In this document: positions 1 through 13,550 of the stretch, piece after piece | Numbering within the stretch: position 1 is the stretch's first letter | How the letters are laid out: every line of letters begins with the position of its first letter | Source: Minisyncoccia bacterium | Lineage (GTDB): Bacteria; Patescibacteriota; Minisyncoccia; Phycocordibacterales; CALRBL01 | DNA: 35,553 nt | Assembly: GCA_038227435.1 (NCBI GenBank) | Contig: JBBRPW010000002.1 | Coordinates: 1 to 35,553, forward strand | Reading direction: 5' to 3' | Notes under the pieces: generated by a model | The model's database searches: none | The model's input: only the letters and a program-made list of their open reading frames with translations | What the model was told of the DNA's origin: nothing | Position numbers and translations under genes: made by a program

Positions 1-770
<770 letters not shown>

Positions 771-8800: not shown

Positions 8801-9697
8801 ATGCAAAAGCGTCAACATACAATACCCAAATGTTATCTCGAAAACTTTATTGATAAAAAAGGTTTTTTGTGGGTATTAGATACTAAAAATAATATATTTA
8901 AAATCAAACCAGAGAATATATTAGTTGAGAATCATTTTTATACTATCAAGCTAAAGAACGGTGATAAAAATCTTATAGTGGAGGATACTCTATCAAAGAT
9001 TGAGGGAGCTTATGCAATAATATTCAAGGAAAAAATATCTCAAGATCAGTTTTTAACTGATCAAGAGCGTGCAAAAGTCTCAGTTTTTTATGCCGCTCTT
9101 TTACTAAGGACAAGACCCTATCGGGAAAGCATGAGAAATGCCCTAACTAAACTCAAGACTAATATGGAGGAGTGGAAAAAACAATTTGAGATGATTCCTG
9201 AATCTCAAAAAATAACCTCAACAATTTCTAGTTCTGGAAATACTATTAATATGGAGGAACTTGATTCATACCTCGATAATTTCGACCAAGAACATTCGGC
9301 AAATGTTCTTTTACATCTTCCTGACGTAGCCCAAATTATTTTTAATATGAAATGGTCTATATTAAAGAGCTTGGGAGACGACTTTGTTACTTCAGATGAT
9401 CCATTGGTACTTTTAAGACCAGAGGCACTCAAAAAATATGGATCTAAAGCTATAGGTAGTCAGCCAGGGTTAAGGTACGAAGACGTAGAAGTAACATTAT
9501 CGCTATCAAAGAACCGCTTTTTATTAGCGGGCTGGATTCTTGAAGAGGATTCTTATCTGGAAGTAGATAATGATATGGTCCGGCAGATGAATCACCGGAC
9601 CGTAATCCGATCATCCGAAAGAATAATAACTTCCTCAGAAACTCAAGCTAAAGTCATAAGAGATAGGTATACTGAAACTGTATATGAAAAAAATTAA
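8801..9697 (+). CDS. DUF4238-domain protein
   Basis: N-terminal KRQHTIPKCYLENF, ENHFYT, VEDTLSKIE, and FVTSDDP motifs characteristic of DUF4238. Confidence 0.82.
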   Translation: MQKRQHTIPKCYLENFIDKKGFLWVLDTKNNIFKIKPENILVENHFYTIKLKNGDKNLIVEDTLSKIEGAYAIIFKEKISQDQFLTDQERAKVSVFYAALLLRTRPYRESMRNALTKLKTNMEEWKKQFEMIPESQKITSTISSSGNTINMEELDSYLDNFDQEHSANVLLHLPDVAQIIFNMKWSILKSLGDDFVTSDDPLVLLRPEALKKYGSKAIGSQPGLRYEDVEVTLSLSKNRFLLAGWILEEDSYLEVDNDMVRQMNHRTVIRSSERIITSSETQAKVIRDRYTETVYEKN

Positions 9698-10199
9698 TCT
9701 CGAAGAACTGAATAATGAAGACCTATGGCTCGGATATGCCGATATTCAACAAGAACTTAAAAAGAGAGGTCTGGTTAGAACAAACAACATAGTTGGTGAA
9801 CGTGGTGAGTTTTTAGCTATTGAAACTTATAACTCAATAAGCGGATTACCAAACCTACAAGCTGCTCCAGAAGGAACTCAAAATGTAGATGCTCTAAGTA
9901 GAAAAGGAGAAAGATATAGTATTAAGACTATAAGTGAACCTGGGAGTACAACAGGTGTGTTTTATGGTATTGGAGAAAAAGATGATGGGAATATTCCTGA
10001 AAAGAAATTCGAGTACGTGATTATTGTTCAACTGTATAAAAATTACAGACCTAAGAGAATATTAGAGGTAACATGGGAACAGTTTTTAAAACATAAGAAA
10101 TGGCATAGTACTATGAGAGCTTGGAACCTCAGTGTTACCAAAGCAGTGCTTTCAGATGTAAAGATTATTATGAATTCGGAGTCGATCAGAGAAGAATAA
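9684..10199 (+). CDS. Putative PD-(D/E)XK nuclease-fold protein (DUF6998-like)
   Basis: VGERGEFLA helix, then VDA...YSIKT (E...D...SxK catalytic layout). Overlaps the upstream gene by 14 nt. Confidence 0.6.
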   Translation: MKKINLEELNNEDLWLGYADIQQELKKRGLVRTNNIVGERGEFLAIETYNSISGLPNLQAAPEGTQNVDALSRKGERYSIKTISEPGSTTGVFYGIGEKDDGNIPEKKFEYVIIVQLYKNYRPKRILEVTWEQFLKHKKWHSTMRAWNLSVTKAVLSDVKIIMNSESIREE

Positions 10200-10202
10200 A
10201 GA

Positions 10203-10232
10203 TTGACAAGTAAACGTACGTTCACCTATACT
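10203..10232 (+). promoter_or_regulatory. lexA operon promoter containing a palindromic operator
   Basis: TTGACA (10203-10208), 18-nt spacer, TATACT (10227-10232). The spacer contains near-palindrome GTAAACGTACGTTCAC (10210-10225). Confidence 0.8.
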
Positions 10233-10238
10233 ATAGAT

Positions 10239-10823
10239 ATGAAAAAGGGAGATCAATATGGAGAGTATAAAAATAACATAGGTCGCTTCTACAGTCGTAA
10301 CCGACGTGTACCTACGTACAGTGAAATTATGGACCTTTGTGGCTTTGCATCTAAAAATGCTGCATCTAAATTGGTGCACAAATTAATTGATGATGGATTC
10401 CTCGATAAAGATGTAACTGGAAAAATTATTCCATCTCAAATTGATTCTCCAATAAAAGTGCTCGGTGTTGTTGAAGCTGGATTCGGCGCTCCTGCTGAAG
10501 AAGAAGTGTTGGATACGTTATCGCTCGACGAATATTTAATTGATAATCGGGAAGCTACGTACATGCTCGAAGTAAAAGGAGATTCAATGATTGATGCGGG
10601 AATTATTGAAGGCGACATGGTCTTGGTTGAGCGAACACAAGATTATCATTTAGGTGATATTGTCATTGCAGAAATTGATGGACGATTTACCATGAAATAT
10701 ATTCGAAAAACAGGAAGTGTAATCTGGCTCGAACCCGCCAACAAAGCCTACAAGCCTTTGTATCCAACTGAAGATTTAAAAGTAGTGGCAGTGGTGAAAG
10801 CGGTCATCCGTAAGTATTCATAA
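10239..10823 (+). CDS. lexA: LexA/UmuD-family S24 self-cleaving repressor (wHTH + peptidase)
   Basis: wHTH PTYSEIMDLCGFAS, Ala80-Gly81 site (VLGVVEAGF), Ser116 (GDSM), Lys153 (TMK). Start reassigned to ATG 10239 because TTG 10203 is the -35 box. Confidence 0.88.
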   Translation: MKKGDQYGEYKNNIGRFYSRNRRVPTYSEIMDLCGFASKNAASKLVHKLIDDGFLDKDVTGKIIPSQIDSPIKVLGVVEAGFGAPAEEEVLDTLSLDEYLIDNREATYMLEVKGDSMIDAGIIEGDMVLVERTQDYHLGDIVIAEIDGRFTMKYIRKTGSVIWLEPANKAYKPLYPTEDLKVVAVVKAVIRKYS

Positions 10824-10830
10824 AATAATA

Positions 10831-12153
10831 ATGGAATTAAAATCCAACCAACAACTGTTGAATGAACAGACGCCTTTAGCTGTGCATTCATATCGAAAAT
10901 GTATTCTCCATGTTGATGGCGATTCTTTTTTTGCATCATGCGAGATTGCTCACAATCCTCAGCTACGAGGGAAGCCTGTGGTGACCGGATGGGAAAGAGG
11001 AATTGCTACCTCACTTACCTACGAAGCAAAAAAATTAGGAGTAGTTAGAGGAATGAAAGTATCAGACATCAAAAAGTTTTTTCCTCAAGTAATTGTCATG
11101 GCCTCTCACTACGAACTTTACTCTCTGTATTCACTTCGAATGTACAGCATTGTTCGTCGGTACACTCCTGATATTGAAGAATTTAGTGTCGATGAATGCT
11201 ATGCAGATTTAACTGGACTTCGTATTGTCCACCACTCTACATACGAAGAAATTGCTTTAAAAATTAAACACGATTTAGAAACCGAACTCGGTATGACATT
11301 TTCAATGGGAATTGGTCCTAATAAAACAATTGCAAAATTAGCCTCGAAATATAAAAAACCATCGGGTTTTACTCCGGTTCCCGCAAAGCGCGTCCATATC
11401 TTTTTAGATGGCATGCCTGTTGAAAAAATTTGTGGAGTAGGTCCAAGCACCACTGCTCAATTTAATAAGTTGGGAATTAAAACAGCTCTTGATTTAGCTA
11501 AAAAAAATATGGCGTGGGTCGATGACAATTTAAGTAAACCCTTTAGAGAAATTTGGGCGGAACTCCACGGTGAATTTATTTTTAAATTAAAAACAGGAAG
11601 TGTGCCCGACTACCAATCGATTATGAAGGCTCATACCTTTATTCCAACTCAAGACAAGGAAGTTGTATTTAGTGAAATATCCCGCCATATTGAATCGTTA
11701 TGTATTCGATTAAGGAAATATAAGTTAGGAACGAGTGTTGTTTGCTTATCAATTAAAACTCAGTCGTTTAGTTACAAAAATGTTGATTTATTATTGCCGC
11801 GTCCTACTGCAGTACCTGAAGAGATTTTGCCTCACTTAAGATTAAAGTTTGATTCCTTGTGGAAAAGTTCAATTCAAGGGAAACATATTATTCGAGCGTC
11901 GAGTATTACCCTGGGACATTTGGTAGACATTACAGCCAGACACGAAGATTTGTTTGGAGCATCAAGTAAAGCGGAAAAATTGTATGACGTGTATTCTGCA
12001 ATTGACTCTTTAGCGGGAAAGTTTGGAAGAGGAACAGTGTTTTTAGGATCGAGCTTTAATGCATCTGAGGCCGCAGTAAAAGATTCAAAAAAGATGGGAA
12101 CGTATCACAAGAAAAGGAATTTAGATATTCCGATATTGGGGTGGGTGAGTTAA
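10831..12153 (+). CDS. Y-family translesion DNA polymerase (DinB/UmuC-like)
   Basis: LHVDGDSFFASCE, YEAKKLGV, SVDECYAD, AKLASKYKKPSG, GVGPST; clamp-binding-like HEDLF; IDSLAGKFG. Confidence 0.93.
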   Translation: MELKSNQQLLNEQTPLAVHSYRKCILHVDGDSFFASCEIAHNPQLRGKPVVTGWERGIATSLTYEAKKLGVVRGMKVSDIKKFFPQVIVMASHYELYSLYSLRMYSIVRRYTPDIEEFSVDECYADLTGLRIVHHSTYEEIALKIKHDLETELGMTFSMGIGPNKTIAKLASKYKKPSGFTPVPAKRVHIFLDGMPVEKICGVGPSTTAQFNKLGIKTALDLAKKNMAWVDDNLSKPFREIWAELHGEFIFKLKTGSVPDYQSIMKAHTFIPTQDKEVVFSEISRHIESLCIRLRKYKLGTSVVCLSIKTQSFSYKNVDLLLPRPTAVPEEILPHLRLKFDSLWKSSIQGKHIIRASSITLGHLVDITARHEDLFGASSKAEKLYDVYSAIDSLAGKFGRGTVFLGSSFNASEAAVKDSKKMGTYHKKRNLDIPILGWVS

Positions 12154-13550
12154 TTGCTAAGATTTTTTTTATTTAAAGTTAAAATAAAAGTAACTCCCGT
12201 GTCTTTGATTGAGTTTGTGAAATTAATAGTTCCATTGAATCGATTTTCAATAATCGATTTAGCACCATACAAACCAATACCTAAACCCCCGGTATTTTTC
12301 TTTGTAGTAAAAAACGGATCAAAAATCTTTTCACAAATAGTTAGAGGTATCTTCGGGCCATTATTAAATATTTCTATAAAAACCTCGGTATCATTTTCAT
12401 ATGTCTTAACACGAATAGTTTTATTCTTTGAAATATCATGCAAGGCATCAATACTGTTGCATATGATATTTTTAATGATTTGGTAAAAACAAAGTTCATT
12501 TCCAAAAATGGTCGAATTACTTTTTTCAGTAAACATAATTTCAATATTTAAATTATCAGTTCTGTATTTTTCAAATCTAATCAATTGTTCAATAGAATGG
12601 TCTATATTTAAGTCTATTTTTTCCTCTTCTTGTTTTACACTATTACTAAAGGCACTAAAGAAACTAGTAATCCTTTGTAGTGCAATTCCTACTTCAGATA
12701 AATGATTTTTAATACTAGGTACATTACTTTCCTCGATTTTTTCAACATAAAATTTAAGAGAAGTAAAAGGACTTGCTATATCGTGTAATATTTGAGAAGC
12801 TTTTTTACCGTATGAAATAATTTGCTCATCCCTTCTCAATCTTTCTTGTTCGGAAACCTTAAGCTCTAAAGTTCTTCTTTCTACAATAAATTCTAGATTA
12901 TCCCGCTCTTCCTTTATATTGTCTTCTGAAATGATCAACTTTTTAAGTATCTTGTCTTTCTCTTTGTTAACTAACCAGGAGAGACTCATAACGCCACAAA
13001 AGATAATACTGTAGGTGATAGTGTCTATTATTTCAGGATTTTCTAATCTCCAGTTATTATCTATAGGACCAGCTTTAATTTGATAGTAACCAAGTGTAAT
13101 GATAAAAAGAGTTAGAAAAGCTGTCATTAATAAACCTGATCTTGTTCCCAAGAGAACACTAGTGATTATAATCACCAGAACATATGAAAGGGTAACTGTG
13201 GGGACATCGAACCCCCAATAAATAGCGGTTGTTAAGCTACCAATTAAATATGTCCCTATTAATAACATAGAAGATAAAACAACCAACTTCTTCTTGGTTA
13301 GATAAATACAAAAAAGAAATAACAGTAGGAGAGTTGAAAAAATTTGTATCGTCACTCCATGGTAGGCATAACCAGCAACTATTTTTTTATAAATTACTAG
13401 AAAAAATAATCCTCCGACTATATAGGTTGATATCTTTAGAACAATCAACATCACATGCTCTTTGGAATCTAGAACCTCGGTAGTATAAGTAGGGAAACGA
13501 AAACACTTATTCCAAACATTCCTCACGAGTGTTGCAACAAGCGTTTTCAT
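12150..13550 (-). CDS. Membrane sensor histidine kinase
   Basis: About 6 TM segments, H-box ILHDIASP, N-box NIICNSIDA, NNGPKI, IFDPFFTTK, GLGIGL. Confidence 0.92.
   Translation of the reverse strand: MKTLVATLVRNVWNKCFRFPTYTTEVLDSKEHVMLIVLKISTYIVGGLFFLVIYKKIVAGYAYHGVTIQIFSTLLLLFLFCIYLTKKKLVVLSSMLLIGTYLIGSLTTAIYWGFDVPTVTLSYVLVIIITSVLLGTRSGLLMTAFLTLFIITLGYYQIKAGPIDNNWRLENPEIIDTITYSIIFCGVMSLSWLVNKEKDKILKKLIISEDNIKEERDNLEFIVERRTLELKVSEQERLRRDEQIISYGKKASQILHDIASPFTSLKFYVEKIEESNVPSIKNHLSEVGIALQRITSFFSAFSNSVKQEEEKIDLNIDHSIEQLIRFEKYRTDNLNIEIMFTEKSNSTIFGNELCFYQIIKNIICNSIDALHDISKNKTIRVKTYENDTEVFIEIFNNGPKIPLTICEKIFDPFFTTKKNTGGLGIGLYGAKSIIENRFNGTINFTNSIKDTGVTFILTLNKKNLSN

What the first reader, a model, noticed from the sequence alone, without database searches (positions are those of the whole stretch)
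10239..12153. Possible two-gene 'self-activating' SOS mutasome: polymerase tail mimics the LexA cleavage-site strand
Seen: the Y-family polymerase ends in ...LDIPILGWVS* (12121-12153). This aligns with the strand just before the scissile Ala-Gly of its operon partner, SPIKVLGVVE-A/G (about 10446-10481), and stops one residue short of the Ala. The partner has a LexA wHTH, but after the cut site it reads AGFGAPAEEEVLDTLSLDEYLI, which is UmuD-like rather than LexA-like. Known: in S24 peptidases this strand lies in the catalytic cleft and leaves with the N-terminal fragment after RecA-stimulated autocleavage; Pol V needs cleaved UmuD' bound to UmuC. Inference: one protein acts first as repressor, then after cleavage as the UmuD'-like subunit, with the polymerase docking by beta-strand complementation into the vacated groove. 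Alternatively the tail inhibits cleavage as feedback. I do not know whether this mimicry has been described.
Basis: partly seen in the sequence, partly recalled or inferred. Interest (0 to 1): 0.85.

Follow-up and report, generated by a model that had tools for sequence, protein, structure and literature searches.

The report
LexA-polymerase operon with cleavage-site-mimic tail
A small two-gene SOS operon encodes a LexA repressor that looks like the UmuD subunit of error-prone polymerase V, next to a UmuC-like polymerase whose conserved last residues copy the strand in front of LexA's self-cleavage site; this suggests that the cut repressor itself becomes the polymerase's subunit.

Summary
The Y-family polymerase (10831-12153) ends in ...LDIPILGWVS. 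Its upstream partner (10239-10823) reads SPIKVLGVVE-A|G at residues 70-81, with Ser116 and Lys153 in place. The tail type [IL]P-x-[LM]-G-x-V-(x)-end is conserved in relatives.

The pair is a LexA-box-controlled operon found in Patescibacteria-like, Nitrospirota and other genomes. The polymerase has the C-terminal layout of UmuC: a clamp motif, a RecA-N-terminus-like motif and a conserved tail. The partner's C-terminal domain is closest to UmuD and starts, after the cut, with a UmuD'-like arm.

Two papers bear on this. A published AlphaFold model of E. coli Pol V places the UmuC C-terminus on the Ser/Lys dyad of UmuD'. Acinetobacter UmuDAb is a precedent for a repressor that also serves as a polymerase subunit.

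A co-fold of the tail with the cleaved dimer gave weak support only (0.46 against 0.00 for controls). My verdict is a Pol V-like mutasome that uses LexA as its UmuD. This is a new variant of a known kind. The mechanism is inferred, not shown.

The parts
10203..10232 (+). Promoter of the operon: -35 TTGACA (10203-10208), 18-nt spacer, -10 TATACT (10227-10232). The ATG at 10239 lies 7 nt after the -10, so the mRNA is leaderless or nearly so.
   Evidence: 11 of 12 consensus matches, the best of the 5 sites in 10050-12450. The sequence was read.
10210..10225 (.). LexA box: the palindrome GTAAACGTACGTTCAC (type GAAC-N4-GTTC, one mismatch) inside the promoter spacer.
   Evidence: The same box type ([TAC]GAAC-N4-GTTC[ATG]) lies upstream of lexA in 56 of 79 related loci. 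The same 16-mer type stands before lexA2 and a uvrB-like ORF of the same genome.
10239..10823 (+). lexA-like gene (194 aa): a diverged LexA-type winged-helix N-domain followed by an S24 peptidase domain.
   Evidence: Peptidase_S24, 1.2e-27. TIGR00498 lexA 113 bits (cut-off 110.95) and UmuD model 107.5 bits (cut-off 110). LexA_DNA_bind is the best hit for residues 1-75 but below cut-off (14.8 against 23.7 bits); alignment to LexA and UmuD structures.
10446..10481 (+). Cleavage-site strand S70-A80 (SPIKVLGVVEA) and the scissile A80|G81.
   Evidence: G76, A80 and G81 are invariant in 79 of 79 partners.
10479..10541 (+). UmuD'-like N-terminal arm exposed by cleavage (GFGAPAEEEVLDTLSLDEYLI; family consensus GFPSPAEEEL).
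   Evidence: the residue after G81 is F in 68, W in 9 and Y in 2 of 79. One search shows the alignment to the UmuD' arm GFPSPAADYVEQ.
10584..10586 (+). Ser116, the predicted nucleophile.
   Evidence: Invariant. It aligns with the GDSM serine of UmuD and LexA.
10695..10697 (+). Lys153, the predicted general base.
   Evidence: Invariant. It aligns with UmuD K97, which is Ala in the chain of entry 8gmt.
10831..12153 (+). Y-family DNA polymerase gene (440 aa). It starts 7 nt after the lexA stop and is the only Y-family polymerase found in the genome.
   Evidence: IMS 7.8e-42, IMS_HHH, IMS_C; one IMS match in G000. D29, D31, D121 and E122 are invariant in 91 sequences.
11941..11958 (+). HEDLFG, a beta-clamp-binding-type motif directly after the little-finger domain. 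It is collinear with QLNLF of E. coli UmuC.
   Evidence: F375 is invariant and L374 nearly so. A DLF-like motif is found in 83 of 96. Global alignment to UmuC. The motif consensus is recalled from the literature.
11968..12045 (+). RecA-N-terminus-like motif (KAEKLYDVYSAIDSLAGKFGRGTVFL).
   Evidence: local alignment to the N-terminus of the genome's own RecA scores 37, and 0 of 1000 shuffles reach that score. It is collinear with the same region of E. coli UmuC. D392 and G399 are invariant. The motif is defined in PMC6511836 (passages).
12121..12153 (+). C-terminal tail LDIPILGWVS and the stop codon: the cleavage-strand mimic.

Best explanation
This is a two-gene, LexA-box-controlled, Pol V-like mutasome operon in which a LexA protein takes the place of UmuD.

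Proposed sequence of events:
1. Intact LexA dimers sit on the GAAC-N4-GTTC box inside the operon's own promoter.
2. After DNA damage, RecA filaments trigger self-cleavage at A80|G81 by Ser116/Lys153. This lifts repression. It also yields a C-terminal fragment that begins with a UmuD'-like arm (GFGAPAEEE...).
3. The polymerase is built like UmuC: catalytic core, a DLF clamp motif, a RecA-N-terminus-like motif, and a conserved tail.
4. The tail ...[IL]P-x-L-G-x-V-x-COOH has the sequence of the strand that lies before the scissile bond. I propose it docks as a beta-strand on the S24 domain, in or next to the substrate cleft. That place is free only once the repressor's own strand has left with the N-terminal fragment. 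The polymerase would therefore prefer the cleaved form.
5. The arm of the second protomer, RecA and the beta clamp complete the complex, as in Pol V.

Shown by sequence: the operon, promoter and operator, the catalytic residues, the motif layout, and the conserved mimicry. Inferred: cleavage, binding, the docking site and the activity.
For: (1) Synteny. In 60 relatives, 17 genomes carry a polymerase of this family, and 16 of those have an S24/LexA gene directly upstream on the same strand. Among 96 polymerases (the window's plus those of 103 loci), a full-length LexA is in the locus for 78, a partial S24 gene for 6, and none for 12. Of those 12, 4 have less than 700 nt of upstream sequence.

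(2) Operator. There is a LexA box in the promoter spacer, and the same box type stands upstream of lexA in 56 of 79 loci.

(3) Mimicry. The tail matrix ranks the cleavage strand first in 69 of 79 partners. The window's strand is among the top 8 of 178,029 genome positions. The HTH-less, UmuD-like partner in L010 shows the same resemblance (ILPFVGSMHA|G against NIPYCGYVK-end).

(4) The tail goes with S24. L012 (genome G011, 99% complete) has a polymerase of this family that ends in DLLFL instead of the tail, and that genome has 0 S24 matches. L100, which has no S24 gene in its locus, ends the same way.

(5) UmuC-like layout: invariant F375 in the DLF motif, a RecA-NT-like motif (0 of 1000 shuffles reach its score), and collinearity with E. 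coli UmuC.

(6) The partner's C-terminal domain is closest to UmuD and UmuD' in the PDB, and its arm consensus is GFPSPAEEEL.

(7) In at least 7 relatives (G001, G012, G021, G047, G049, G051, G054) the linked LexA is the only full-length S24 match in the genome. There, one protein must be the repressor and is the only candidate for a UmuD role.

(8) Literature. In the AlphaFold model of E. coli Pol V, UmuC L418-K422 adds a beta-strand to UmuD' and its carboxylate reaches S36/T71/K73 (PMC11791011, passages). These are S60/T95/K97 in full-length numbering (my check). The same paper cites earlier experiments in which deleting 1-3 C-terminal residues of UmuC abolished mutagenesis. UmuDAb acts both as a repressor and as a pol V subunit (PMC13062779, passages).

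(9) Co-fold of residues 401-440 of the polymerase with two copies of LexA 81-194: weak support. The score was 0.46 (runs 0.50, 0.45, 0.46) and the best of 3 controls was 0.00. The mark was reached by 58 of 80 solved complexes and 2 of 110 mismatched pairs. At 0.60 or under, though, it was reached by only 7 of those 80 solved complexes and by both mismatches that passed. The runs agree in at least 43% of contacts. Partner pLDDT was at least 38. I used my own alignments, and no interface was given.
Against: - No binding, cleavage or activity has been measured. The co-fold is weak, and by the tool's own calibration a pass at this level is more often wrong than right unless the guess was likely beforehand. 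It may also reflect the model's memory of LexA's own strand in the cleft. No contacts were returned, so the docking site is untested.
- The window's genome has a second LexA paralogue with its own LexA-box promoter. Here, the repressor and subunit roles could be split between the two.
- About 8 polymerases with a tail, mostly from Nitrospirota, have no S24 gene within about 2.4 kb upstream. G350 has the tail, but its LexA lies 40 kb away.
- Nitrospirota-type tails (LP-x-L-x-h-K-V-end) lack the Gly and have a different register.
- One linked polymerase (L015) has a different end.
- An aromatic residue after the cut is not specific to polymerase-bearing genomes. Counting by eye, 7 of 19 parsed LexA orthologues from genomes without the polymerase also have F or Y there.
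- In the E. coli-type UmuDC clade the same matrix test is not convincing: the cleavage strand ranks second at 3.9 bits.
- The tail also fits a hexameric clamp-motif pattern (x-L-x-[IL]-P-h).
Confidence: 0.55

Rival explanations
1. LexA is only the regulator that happens to be co-transcribed. The tail is a docking motif for another partner, most plausibly a second beta-clamp-binding motif of the hexamer type, or a RecA contact. On this reading its likeness to the LexA strand comes from both being short hydrophobic beta-strands.
For: - The tail's upstream half (consensus R-L-G-I-P-[FMY]-L) fits the pattern Q-L-x-L-x-[LF] at its hydrophobic positions (the pattern is recalled).
- The two tail-less members end in DLLFL, which looks like a clamp motif at the same place.
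- Several tailed polymerases have no S24 gene nearby.
- lexA is often found next to Y-family polymerase operons simply as a regulator (PMC6511836, passages).
Against: - A clamp-type motif (x-x-D-L-F, with F375 invariant) already stands after the little finger, collinear with QLNLF of UmuC.
- The invariant tail residues in close relatives are P, G and V, plus a fixed distance to the C-terminus. These are not the positions a clamp motif conserves.
- The first position is R, K or H, never Q.
- The matrix finds the cleavage strand first in 69 of 79 partners.
- The tail is missing in the one genome without any S24 protein.
- The partner keeps a UmuD'-like arm.
Confidence: 0.2
2. The tail is a pseudo-substrate that binds intact or newly made LexA and competes with its own cleavage strand. 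It would then slow self-cleavage or trans-cleavage, as a feedback that restores repression.
For: - The tail resembles the substrate strand but lacks the scissile Ala-Gly: it stops 1 residue short of the Ala in 36 of 42 strict tails and 2 residues short in 6 of 42.
- The two proteins are made from one transcript.
Against: - In intact LexA the strand is tethered in cis, so a free tail would compete poorly.
- The conserved UmuC-like modules and the UmuD'-like arm are not explained.
- In Pol V the corresponding tail is needed for mutagenesis and complex stability, not for inhibiting cleavage (PMC11791011, passages).
Confidence: 0.08
3. The resemblance has no function. It would be a conserved C-terminal element, for example one for stability or protection from proteases, that looks like the LexA strand by chance.
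For: - The window pair alone shares only 4 of 10 residues.
- Related tails diverge from the strand, as in the Nitrospirota type.
- Loss of the UmuC C-terminal residue makes UmuC sensitive to Lon (PMC11791011, passage).
Against: The matrix test gives 69 of 79 first ranks, and the window's strand is in the top 8 of 178,029 genome positions. The tail also co-occurs with S24 partners.
Confidence: 0.05

Closest known systems
E. coli DNA polymerase V (UmuD'2C-RecA-ATP), umuDC operon
   Same: - An S24 self-cleaving protein gene sits directly upstream of a Y-family polymerase gene, under a LexA box.
- The polymerase has a clamp motif, a RecA-N-terminus-like motif and a conserved extreme C-terminus.
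- The partner's C-terminal domain and its post-cleavage arm GF(P/G)(S/A)PA are UmuD-like.
- In the published AlphaFold model the UmuC C-terminus pairs as a beta-strand with UmuD' and reaches the Ser/Lys dyad (PMC11791011; numbering checked).
   Different: - The partner here carries an 80-residue LexA-type DNA-binding domain instead of a 24-residue arm, and it passes the LexA model, not the UmuD model.
- The polymerase is far below the UmuC model cut-off (137 against 431 bits), and its tail has a different sequence (no YTTRxSDLLxVK).
- Tail-to-strand mimicry is strong here, but weak in the E. coli clade.
UmuDAb (UmuD1389) of Acinetobacter baumannii
   Same: It is a roughly 200-aa S24 protein that is cleaved at an Ala-Gly around residue 83. 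It represses SOS genes through its N-terminal part and, once cleaved, supports pol V mutagenesis with a UmuC partner (PMC13062779, passages).
   Different: - UmuDAb is encoded apart from its umuC partners and works with the co-repressor DdrR, in a genus that lacks LexA. [quoted passage not shown]
- Here the protein is a LexA by the NCBIfam equivalog model. It binds a GAAC-N4-GTTC-type box by inference, is fused into one operon with the polymerase, and is widespread in Patescibacteria-like, Nitrospirota and other genomes.
- I did not search for DdrR.
lexA-imuB-C-polY operon of Geobacter sulfurreducens and other lexA-linked Y-family operons
   Same: lexA is co-transcribed with an active Y-family polymerase that carries a RecA-NT-like motif (PMC6511836, passages).
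   Different: - There, a third gene (ImuB-C) is the proposed accessory subunit and LexA is treated only as the regulator.
- Here lexA and pol are adjacent, with a gap of 7 nt in the window and mostly 5-30 nt in relatives.
- The genes occasionally inserted between them are heterogeneous (they were not scanned against family libraries).
B. subtilis YqjW-YqjX / UvrX-YolD putative mutasomes
   Same: A UmuC-like polymerase with a RecA-NT motif and a conserved C-terminal tail is paired with a small upstream accessory gene (PMC6511836 and PMC12926913, passages). The best NCBIfam hit of the window's polymerase is model NF002848.0 (PRK03103.1), which NCBIfam describes only as 'DNA polymerase IV' and which stays below its cut-off. 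That this model stands for the Gram-positive group is my recollection.
   Different: The accessory protein there is a YolD-family SH3-like protein, not an S24 peptidase, so no cleavage switch is involved.

Membership tests
LexA repressor (TIGR00498) | Whole-protein score above the curated equivalog cut-off | tested here: met
   113 bits against a cut-off of 110.95, covering residues 19-193.
LexA repressor (TIGR00498) | N-terminal LexA-type winged-helix DNA-binding domain | tested here: inconclusive
   PF01726 is the best Pfam hit for residues 1-75 but is below its cut-off (14.8 against 23.7 bits, E 0.025). PDB LexA chains align from residue 19 on.
LexA repressor (TIGR00498) | Ala-Gly scissile bond and Ser/Lys dyad in an S24 domain | tested here: met
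   A80|G81, S116 and K153 are invariant in 79 of 79 partners. Peptidase_S24 1.2e-27.
LexA repressor (TIGR00498) | Autoregulation through a palindromic LexA box in its own promoter | tested here: met
   By sequence only. The 16-bp palindrome lies between -35 and -10, and the same box type occurs in 56 of 79 related loci. Binding was not measured.
LexA repressor (TIGR00498) | RecA-stimulated self-cleavage | not testable with these tools
   RecA is present in the genome (C16).
UmuD (NF007621, Pol V autoproteolytic subunit) | Score above the curated cut-off | tested here: not met
   107.5 bits against a cut-off of 110, over residues 79-191 only.
UmuD (NF007621, Pol V autoproteolytic subunit) | Short N-terminal arm without a DNA-binding domain | tested here: not met
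   80 residues with a LexA-like helix-turn-helix precede the cut.
UmuD (NF007621, Pol V autoproteolytic subunit) | GFPSPA-type arm after the cut, and a gene directly upstream of a Y-family polymerase gene | tested here: met
   The window reads GFGAPAEEE and the family consensus is GFPSPAEEEL. The best PDB hits are UmuD and UmuD'. The gap to pol is 7 nt.
UmuC (NF002955, Pol V catalytic subunit) | Score above the curated cut-off | tested here: not met
   137 bits against a cut-off of 431. All Pol IV models are also below their cut-offs, the best being 200.5 against 381.
UmuC (NF002955, Pol V catalytic subunit) | C-terminal extension with a clamp motif, a RecA-NT motif and a conserved extreme C-terminus | tested here: met
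   (collinear alignment to E. coli UmuC; 0 of 1000 shuffles reach the RecA-NT score).
UmuC (NF002955, Pol V catalytic subunit) | Binds the cleaved S24 partner through its C-terminus | tested here: inconclusive
   The co-fold gave weak support: 0.46 against a best control of 0.00, with no interface given.
Active Y-family polymerase | Catalytic carboxylates and IMS/HHH/little-finger domains | tested here: met
   Pfam IMS, IMS_HHH and IMS_C. D29, D31, D121 and E122 are invariant in 91 sequences.
UmuDAb-type dual regulator/subunit | DdrR co-repressor, and absence of a separate LexA | not tested
   I did not search for DdrR. The window's genome has a second LexA paralogue, whereas 7 relatives have only the linked one.

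The most novel reading that the evidence does not exclude
The C-terminal tail of Pol V-type polymerases is a product mimic or pseudo-substrate of the partner's own cleavage site. It plugs the S24 peptidase cleft, and this is how the polymerase reads out that RecA-triggered cleavage has happened. In a large, mostly uncultivated part of the bacterial tree (Patescibacteria-like, Nitrospirota and others), LexA itself is the UmuD: one protein is both the SOS switch and the mutasome subunit. UmuD may then have arisen from such a LexA by loss of the DNA-binding domain. Genome G025 shows that state, with an HTH-less partner plus a separate LexA.
Probability: 0.35. Interest if true: 0.8.

Novelty: new variant of a known kind. 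Interest (0 to 1): 0.62.

Why it matters
If true, it gives a simple structural reason why the error-prone polymerase assembles only with the cleaved form of its S24 partner. The groove is blocked by the partner's own strand until RecA-triggered cleavage removes it.

It would also show that the smallest known SOS mutagenesis module is two genes, with LexA serving as both switch and subunit. That would widen a dual role so far described only for Acinetobacter UmuDAb to many lineages. It would suggest how UmuD evolved from LexA.

It also makes the tail-to-cleft contact predicted for E. coli Pol V directly testable, using a system where the sequence signal is much clearer.

Tried and rejected
(a) Extending the mimicry to classical UmuDC. 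E. coli UmuD reads FSDLVQC|G and UmuC ends SSDLLRVK, and 80 close relatives keep [FY]-S-D-L-[LV]-x-V-[KR]. However, a matrix built from 34 distinct tails ranks the cleavage strand only second in UmuD (3.9 bits, behind DGDLLIVD at 4.3 bits). That script then crashed before its background count. Three plasmid pairs at 63-65% identity show only faint likeness. I do not claim the mimicry for that clade.

(b) The residue after the cut as a marker of polymerase partnership.
- A first small sample looked clean: the 6 LexA orthologues from genomes without the polymerase have I or L there, against 79 of 79 aromatic in linked ones.
- An evenly drawn class-level sample weakened this. Of 13 parsed orthologues from genomes without the polymerase, 6 have F, 1 has Y and 6 have I or L; 3 were not parsed.
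- Second LexA copies in genomes that have the polymerase show L in G014 and F in G025. The two LexA genes that lie far from the polymerase gene, in G350 and G174, show F in both.
- I keep this only as a weak trend.

(c) A BLAST of the polymerase C-terminus against the genome's RecA found nothing useful. A local alignment with a shuffle control did.

(d) I looked for a conserved third gene between lexA and pol. In 9 loci with a gap, the inserted ORFs are heterogeneous. They were not scanned against family libraries.

(e) The generic core GAAC-N4-GTTC is not enriched in the genome: 11 exact sites against about 7 expected. Only the extended 16-mer in promoter context is informative.

(f) Literature.
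- No paper was found that states the tail mimics the cleavage site: full-text searches.
- Within PMC11791011, 'cleavage', 'peptidase', 'S60' and 'K97' each occur 0 times.
- Sanchez-Osuna et al. 2017, on the Patescibacteria SOS network, is not held. I saw only its reference entry, and it may describe this operon.
The supplementary figures of PMC6511836, PMC11791011 and PMC12926913 (polymerase groups, tail logos, model details) may already show this family or its tail.


Full report
WHAT IS THERE

The window comes from a 622-kb genome in 42 contigs. Its relatives in public records are labelled Patescibacteria, Parcubacteria, Saccharibacteria and the like.

At 10239-10823 (+) lies a 194-aa ORF with a Peptidase_S24 domain (1.2e-27). 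It passes NCBI's LexA equivalog model (113 bits, cut-off 110.95) and falls just short of the UmuD model (107.5 bits, cut-off 110).

Seven bases after its stop, at 10831-12153 (+), lies a 440-aa Y-family polymerase with the IMS, IMS_HHH and IMS_C domains. It is the only one found in the genome. Its catalytic carboxylates D29, D31, D121 and E122 are invariant in 91 aligned relatives.

The polymerase ends ...KKRNLDIPILGWVS. The partner reads S70-PIKVLGVVE-A80|G81-FGAPAEEEVLDTLSLDEYLI, with Ser116 and Lys153 in the positions of the S24 dyad.

IS THE RESEMBLANCE MORE THAN CHANCE?

The pair alone shares 4 of 10 residues, which is not evidence. I therefore collected relatives:
- 23 loci from 60 related genomes;
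- 80 loci from one-genome-per-species contigs.

In 15 close relatives the tail is the best-conserved part of the last 60 residues, with P434, G437 and V439 invariant.

Among 96 polymerases of the family:
- 42 end in P-x-x-G-x-V plus 0 or 1 residue (36 with one residue after V, 6 with V last);
- 15 have one extra residue before the Gly;
- 14 end in P-x-L-x-h-x-V, and these include the Nitrospirota type LP-x-L-x-h-K-V-end;
- 25 fall outside these three strict patterns. By a looser [ILVM]P core test, 85 of the 96 carry the tail. Of the 11 that fail even that test, 7 are evident variants by eye and 4 lack the tail (L012, L100, L015, L075).

A log-odds matrix built from the 42 strict tails (8 columns) was slid over each partner LexA. 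For the partners of polymerases that were not used to build the matrix, it ranks first in 34 of 39. In the window's own LexA the strand scores 8.5 bits. It is rank 1 within the protein, and only 8 of 178,029 positions in all ORFs of 100 aa or more in the genome score as high.

The consensus tail is G-[IL]-P-[FMY]-L-G-[EK]-V-x-end. The consensus strand is [GE]-[VLI]-[PRK]-[LVM]-L-G-[LT]-V-E-A|G. These loci are related to one another, so the counts overstate independence. Even so, the two motifs are kept over lineages as far apart as Patescibacteria-like and Nitrospirota genomes.

THE OPERON AND ITS CONTROL

The best promoter-like site in 10050-12450 is TTGACA-18 nt-TATACT at 10203-10232 (11 of 12 matches). 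Its spacer holds the palindrome GTAAACGTACGTTCAC (10210-10225). A box of the type [TAC]GAAC-N4-GTTC[ATG] stands upstream of lexA in 56 of 79 related loci.

In the window's genome the same 16-mer type occurs before a second lexA paralogue, again between a TTGACA and a TATACT. It also occurs before a 729-aa ORF that looks like uvrB by eye. The two genes are therefore a damage-inducible, self-repressed unit.

An S24 gene lies directly upstream of the polymerase on the same strand in 16 of the 17 related genomes that have a polymerase of this family. A full-length LexA is in the locus for 78 of 96 polymerases overall.

THE POLYMERASE IS BUILT LIKE UmuC

After the little-finger domain comes x-x-D-L-F, with F375 invariant and L374 nearly so. 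It is collinear with QLNLF of E. coli UmuC.

Next comes KAEKLYDVYSAIDSLAGKFGRGTVFL. This aligns with the N-terminus of the genome's own RecA at a score that 0 of 1000 shuffles reach, and with the same region of UmuC. It is the RecA-NT motif described by Timinskas and Venclovas (PMC6511836, passages).

Then come a linker and the tail. In 69 of 96 relatives, but not in the window, the linker holds an L-F-x-G-E motif.

By curated models the protein is neither a UmuC (137 against 431 bits) nor a Pol IV (best 200.5 against 381 bits). It works like a UmuC by layout but is not a member of that subfamily.

THE PARTNER IS A LexA WITH A UmuD-LIKE BODY

Its N-terminal 75 residues hit LexA_DNA_bind best but below cut-off, and they align with LexA structures from residue 19 on. 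Its C-terminal domain is closest to E. coli UmuD and UmuD' (70.7 and 69.2 bits), ahead of LexA C-domain chains (57.5 and 55.5 bits).

The new N-terminus after the cut has the family consensus GFPSPAEEEL, like GFPSPAADY of UmuD'.

In at least 7 relatives the linked LexA is the only full-length S24 match in the genome. Six of these are 91-100% complete and one (G054) is 68% complete. The window's genome, however, has a second paralogue.

In genome G025 the polymerase's partner is a 138-aa protein without the DNA-binding domain, and a separate LexA exists. Its strand (ILPFVGSMHA|G) and the polymerase tail (NIPYCGYVK-end) still match.

DOES THE TAIL GO WITH THE PARTNER?

L012 (genome G011, 99% complete) has a polymerase of this family that keeps the DLF and RecA-NT motifs but ends in DLLFL. 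That genome has no S24 match at all. L100 ends the same way and has no S24 gene in its locus.

Against a strict link:
- about 8 polymerases, mostly from Nitrospirota, carry a tail but have no S24 gene within about 2.4 kb upstream;
- G350 has the tail but its LexA lies 40 kb away;
- L015 is linked but ends differently.

A partner encoded elsewhere could serve these polymerases. I could not check that for the contig-only records.

WHAT IS KNOWN

- Deleting the C-terminus of UmuC abolishes UmuD' binding and mutagenesis (earlier work cited in PMC11791011).
- The AlphaFold model of Pol V in that paper has UmuC L418-K422 adding a beta-strand to the UmuD' sheet. The terminal carboxylate reaches 'S36, T71, K73', and K422 pairs with 'E69' (passages).
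- I fetched E. coli umuDC and found that these residue identities fit only if 24 is added: S60, T95, K97, E93. This means the catalytic serine and lysine. Lys97 is the residue replaced by Ala in the UmuD chain of PDB entry 8gmt.
- The words cleavage, peptidase, S60 and K97 do not occur in that paper's main text. The link to the cleavage site is my inference, not the authors' statement.
- A 2026 paper shows that the LexA-like UmuDAb of A. baumannii supports pol V mutagenesis after cleavage, and calls this dual role unique to that species (PMC13062779, passages).
- lexA next to Y-family polymerase operons has been noted, with LexA treated as the regulator (PMC6511836).
- The term LexA does not occur in the main text of the 2026 survey of polymerase complexes (PMC12926913).

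CO-FOLD

Residues 401-440 of the polymerase (alignment of 91 rows) were folded with two copies of LexA 81-194 (79 rows). The result was 'weak support': score 0.46 (runs 0.50, 0.45, 0.46), best of 3 controls 0.00.

The tool's calibration is as follows. The mark was reached by 58 of 80 solved complexes and 2 of 110 mismatched pairs. At 0.60 or under, it was reached by only 7 of those 80 solved complexes and by both mismatches that passed. The runs agree in at least 43% of contacts, and the partner's pLDDT is at least 38. No interface was reported.

This moves my odds up a little. It does not show where the tail sits, and it may echo solved LexA structures that hold their own strand in the cleft.

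MECHANISM PROPOSED

Intact LexA represses the operon. RecA filaments trigger cleavage at A80|G81. The N-terminal fragment leaves, taking strand 70-80 with it. The C-terminal dimer, with its UmuD'-like arms, is now free to take the polymerase tail in the place of that strand. RecA binds the RecA-NT motif and the clamp binds DLF. When damage ends, intact LexA accumulates again and both repression and occlusion of the groove return.

Steps shown by sequence:
- the operon, promoter and operator;
- the catalytic residues;
- the motif layout;
- the conserved mimicry.

Steps inferred:
- cleavage;
- binding;
- the docking site;
- the stoichiometry;
- the activity.

RIVALS

- The tail may be a second clamp motif or a contact for another protein, with LexA only the regulator (0.2).
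- It may be a pseudo-substrate that damps cleavage (0.08).
- The likeness may be without function (0.05).

The first rival is the serious one. The tail's upstream half fits a hexamer clamp pattern, and the tail-less members end in a clamp-like DLLFL. Against it stand four points: the internal DLF motif, the conservation pattern (P, G, V and the distance to the end), the matrix result, and the tail's absence from the genome that has no S24 protein.

NOVELTY AND LIMITS

This is a new variant of a known kind: a Pol V-like module with LexA in the role of UmuD, widespread in poorly studied lineages, with an unusually clear sequence mimicry between the polymerase tail and the cleavage strand.

I found no paper that states the mimicry. 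I could not read Sanchez-Osuna et al. 2017 on the Patescibacteria SOS network, nor any supplementary file.

The attempt to extend the mimicry to the E. coli clade failed its test. The arm-residue trend weakened in a wider sample.

Noticed in passing
G000:C34:795-1662 (outside the window): A second LexA paralogue (about 201 aa; it reads ...MLTQPVSA|GYGAEVQDE at the cut). Its promoter has the same build as the window's (TTGACA, box GTGAACTACAGTTCAC, TATACT), and about 200 nt with a short unannotated ORF lie between the promoter and the gene. Copies of this type also occur in G003, G004 and G006.
   Followed up: partly
G000:C5:10131-12362 (outside the window): The 16-mer GTAAACGTCCGTTCAC, nearly identical to the window's LexA box, lies about 30 nt upstream of a 729-aa ORF. 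By its N-terminal sequence the ORF looks like UvrB; this was judged by eye and not scanned against a family library.
   Followed up: partly
window 8801-10199: Two overlapping genes lie directly upstream of the lexA promoter. One is a DUF4238 protein (6.3e-39). The other is a 171-aa protein that matches PADLOC 'mREase_II', a type II methyl-directed restriction enzyme, at 1.4e-63. This looks like a small defence islet.
   Followed up: partly
window 1-770 and 2898-2970: The 3' part of a 16S rRNA gene (model positions 800-1533, cut by the window's start) and one tRNA gene. These explain the high G+C content of the first 2 kb.
   Followed up: yes
window 10227-10241: The lexA ATG lies only 7 nt after the -10 hexamer, and no Shine-Dalgarno sequence is visible in between. 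The transcript may be leaderless.
   Followed up: no
L010 and L135 (genome G025): The polymerase's partner here is a 138-aa S24 protein without a DNA-binding domain. It reads ...MHA|G-KTV-GFPNPSEEE, with three extra residues before the arm. A separate 191-aa LexA lies elsewhere in the genome. This looks like a LexA/UmuD split after duplication.
   Followed up: partly
relatives G016, G025, G026, G031, G032, G046, G053: High-scoring S24 domains (about 66-113 bits) lie inside open frames of about 460-710 aa, which is far longer than LexA. The rest of these proteins was not examined.
   Followed up: no
L005:2804-3196 and L030:1622-2014: In two loci a 131-aa ORF is inserted between lexA and the polymerase gene, and the two ORFs are similar to each other. 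Other loci carry unrelated insertions. None was identified.
   Followed up: no
L080, L086-L092, L095, L096, L098, L101-L104 (Nitrospirota and Thermodesulfovibrionales records): These polymerases end in LGLP-x-L-x-h-K-V without the Gly. One genome (record OY970295.1) has two copies, one lexA-linked (L086) and one not (L091).
   Followed up: partly
L017 (G007) and L018 (G053): These operons look decaying. The S24 gene of G007 has 2 in-frame TAA stops, and the polymerase match of G053 has 1 TAA.
   Followed up: no
window 12150-13550 (-): A 466-aa ORF on the opposite strand overlaps the polymerase stop codon by 4 nt. No terminator-like site was found between the two convergent genes.
   Followed up: no
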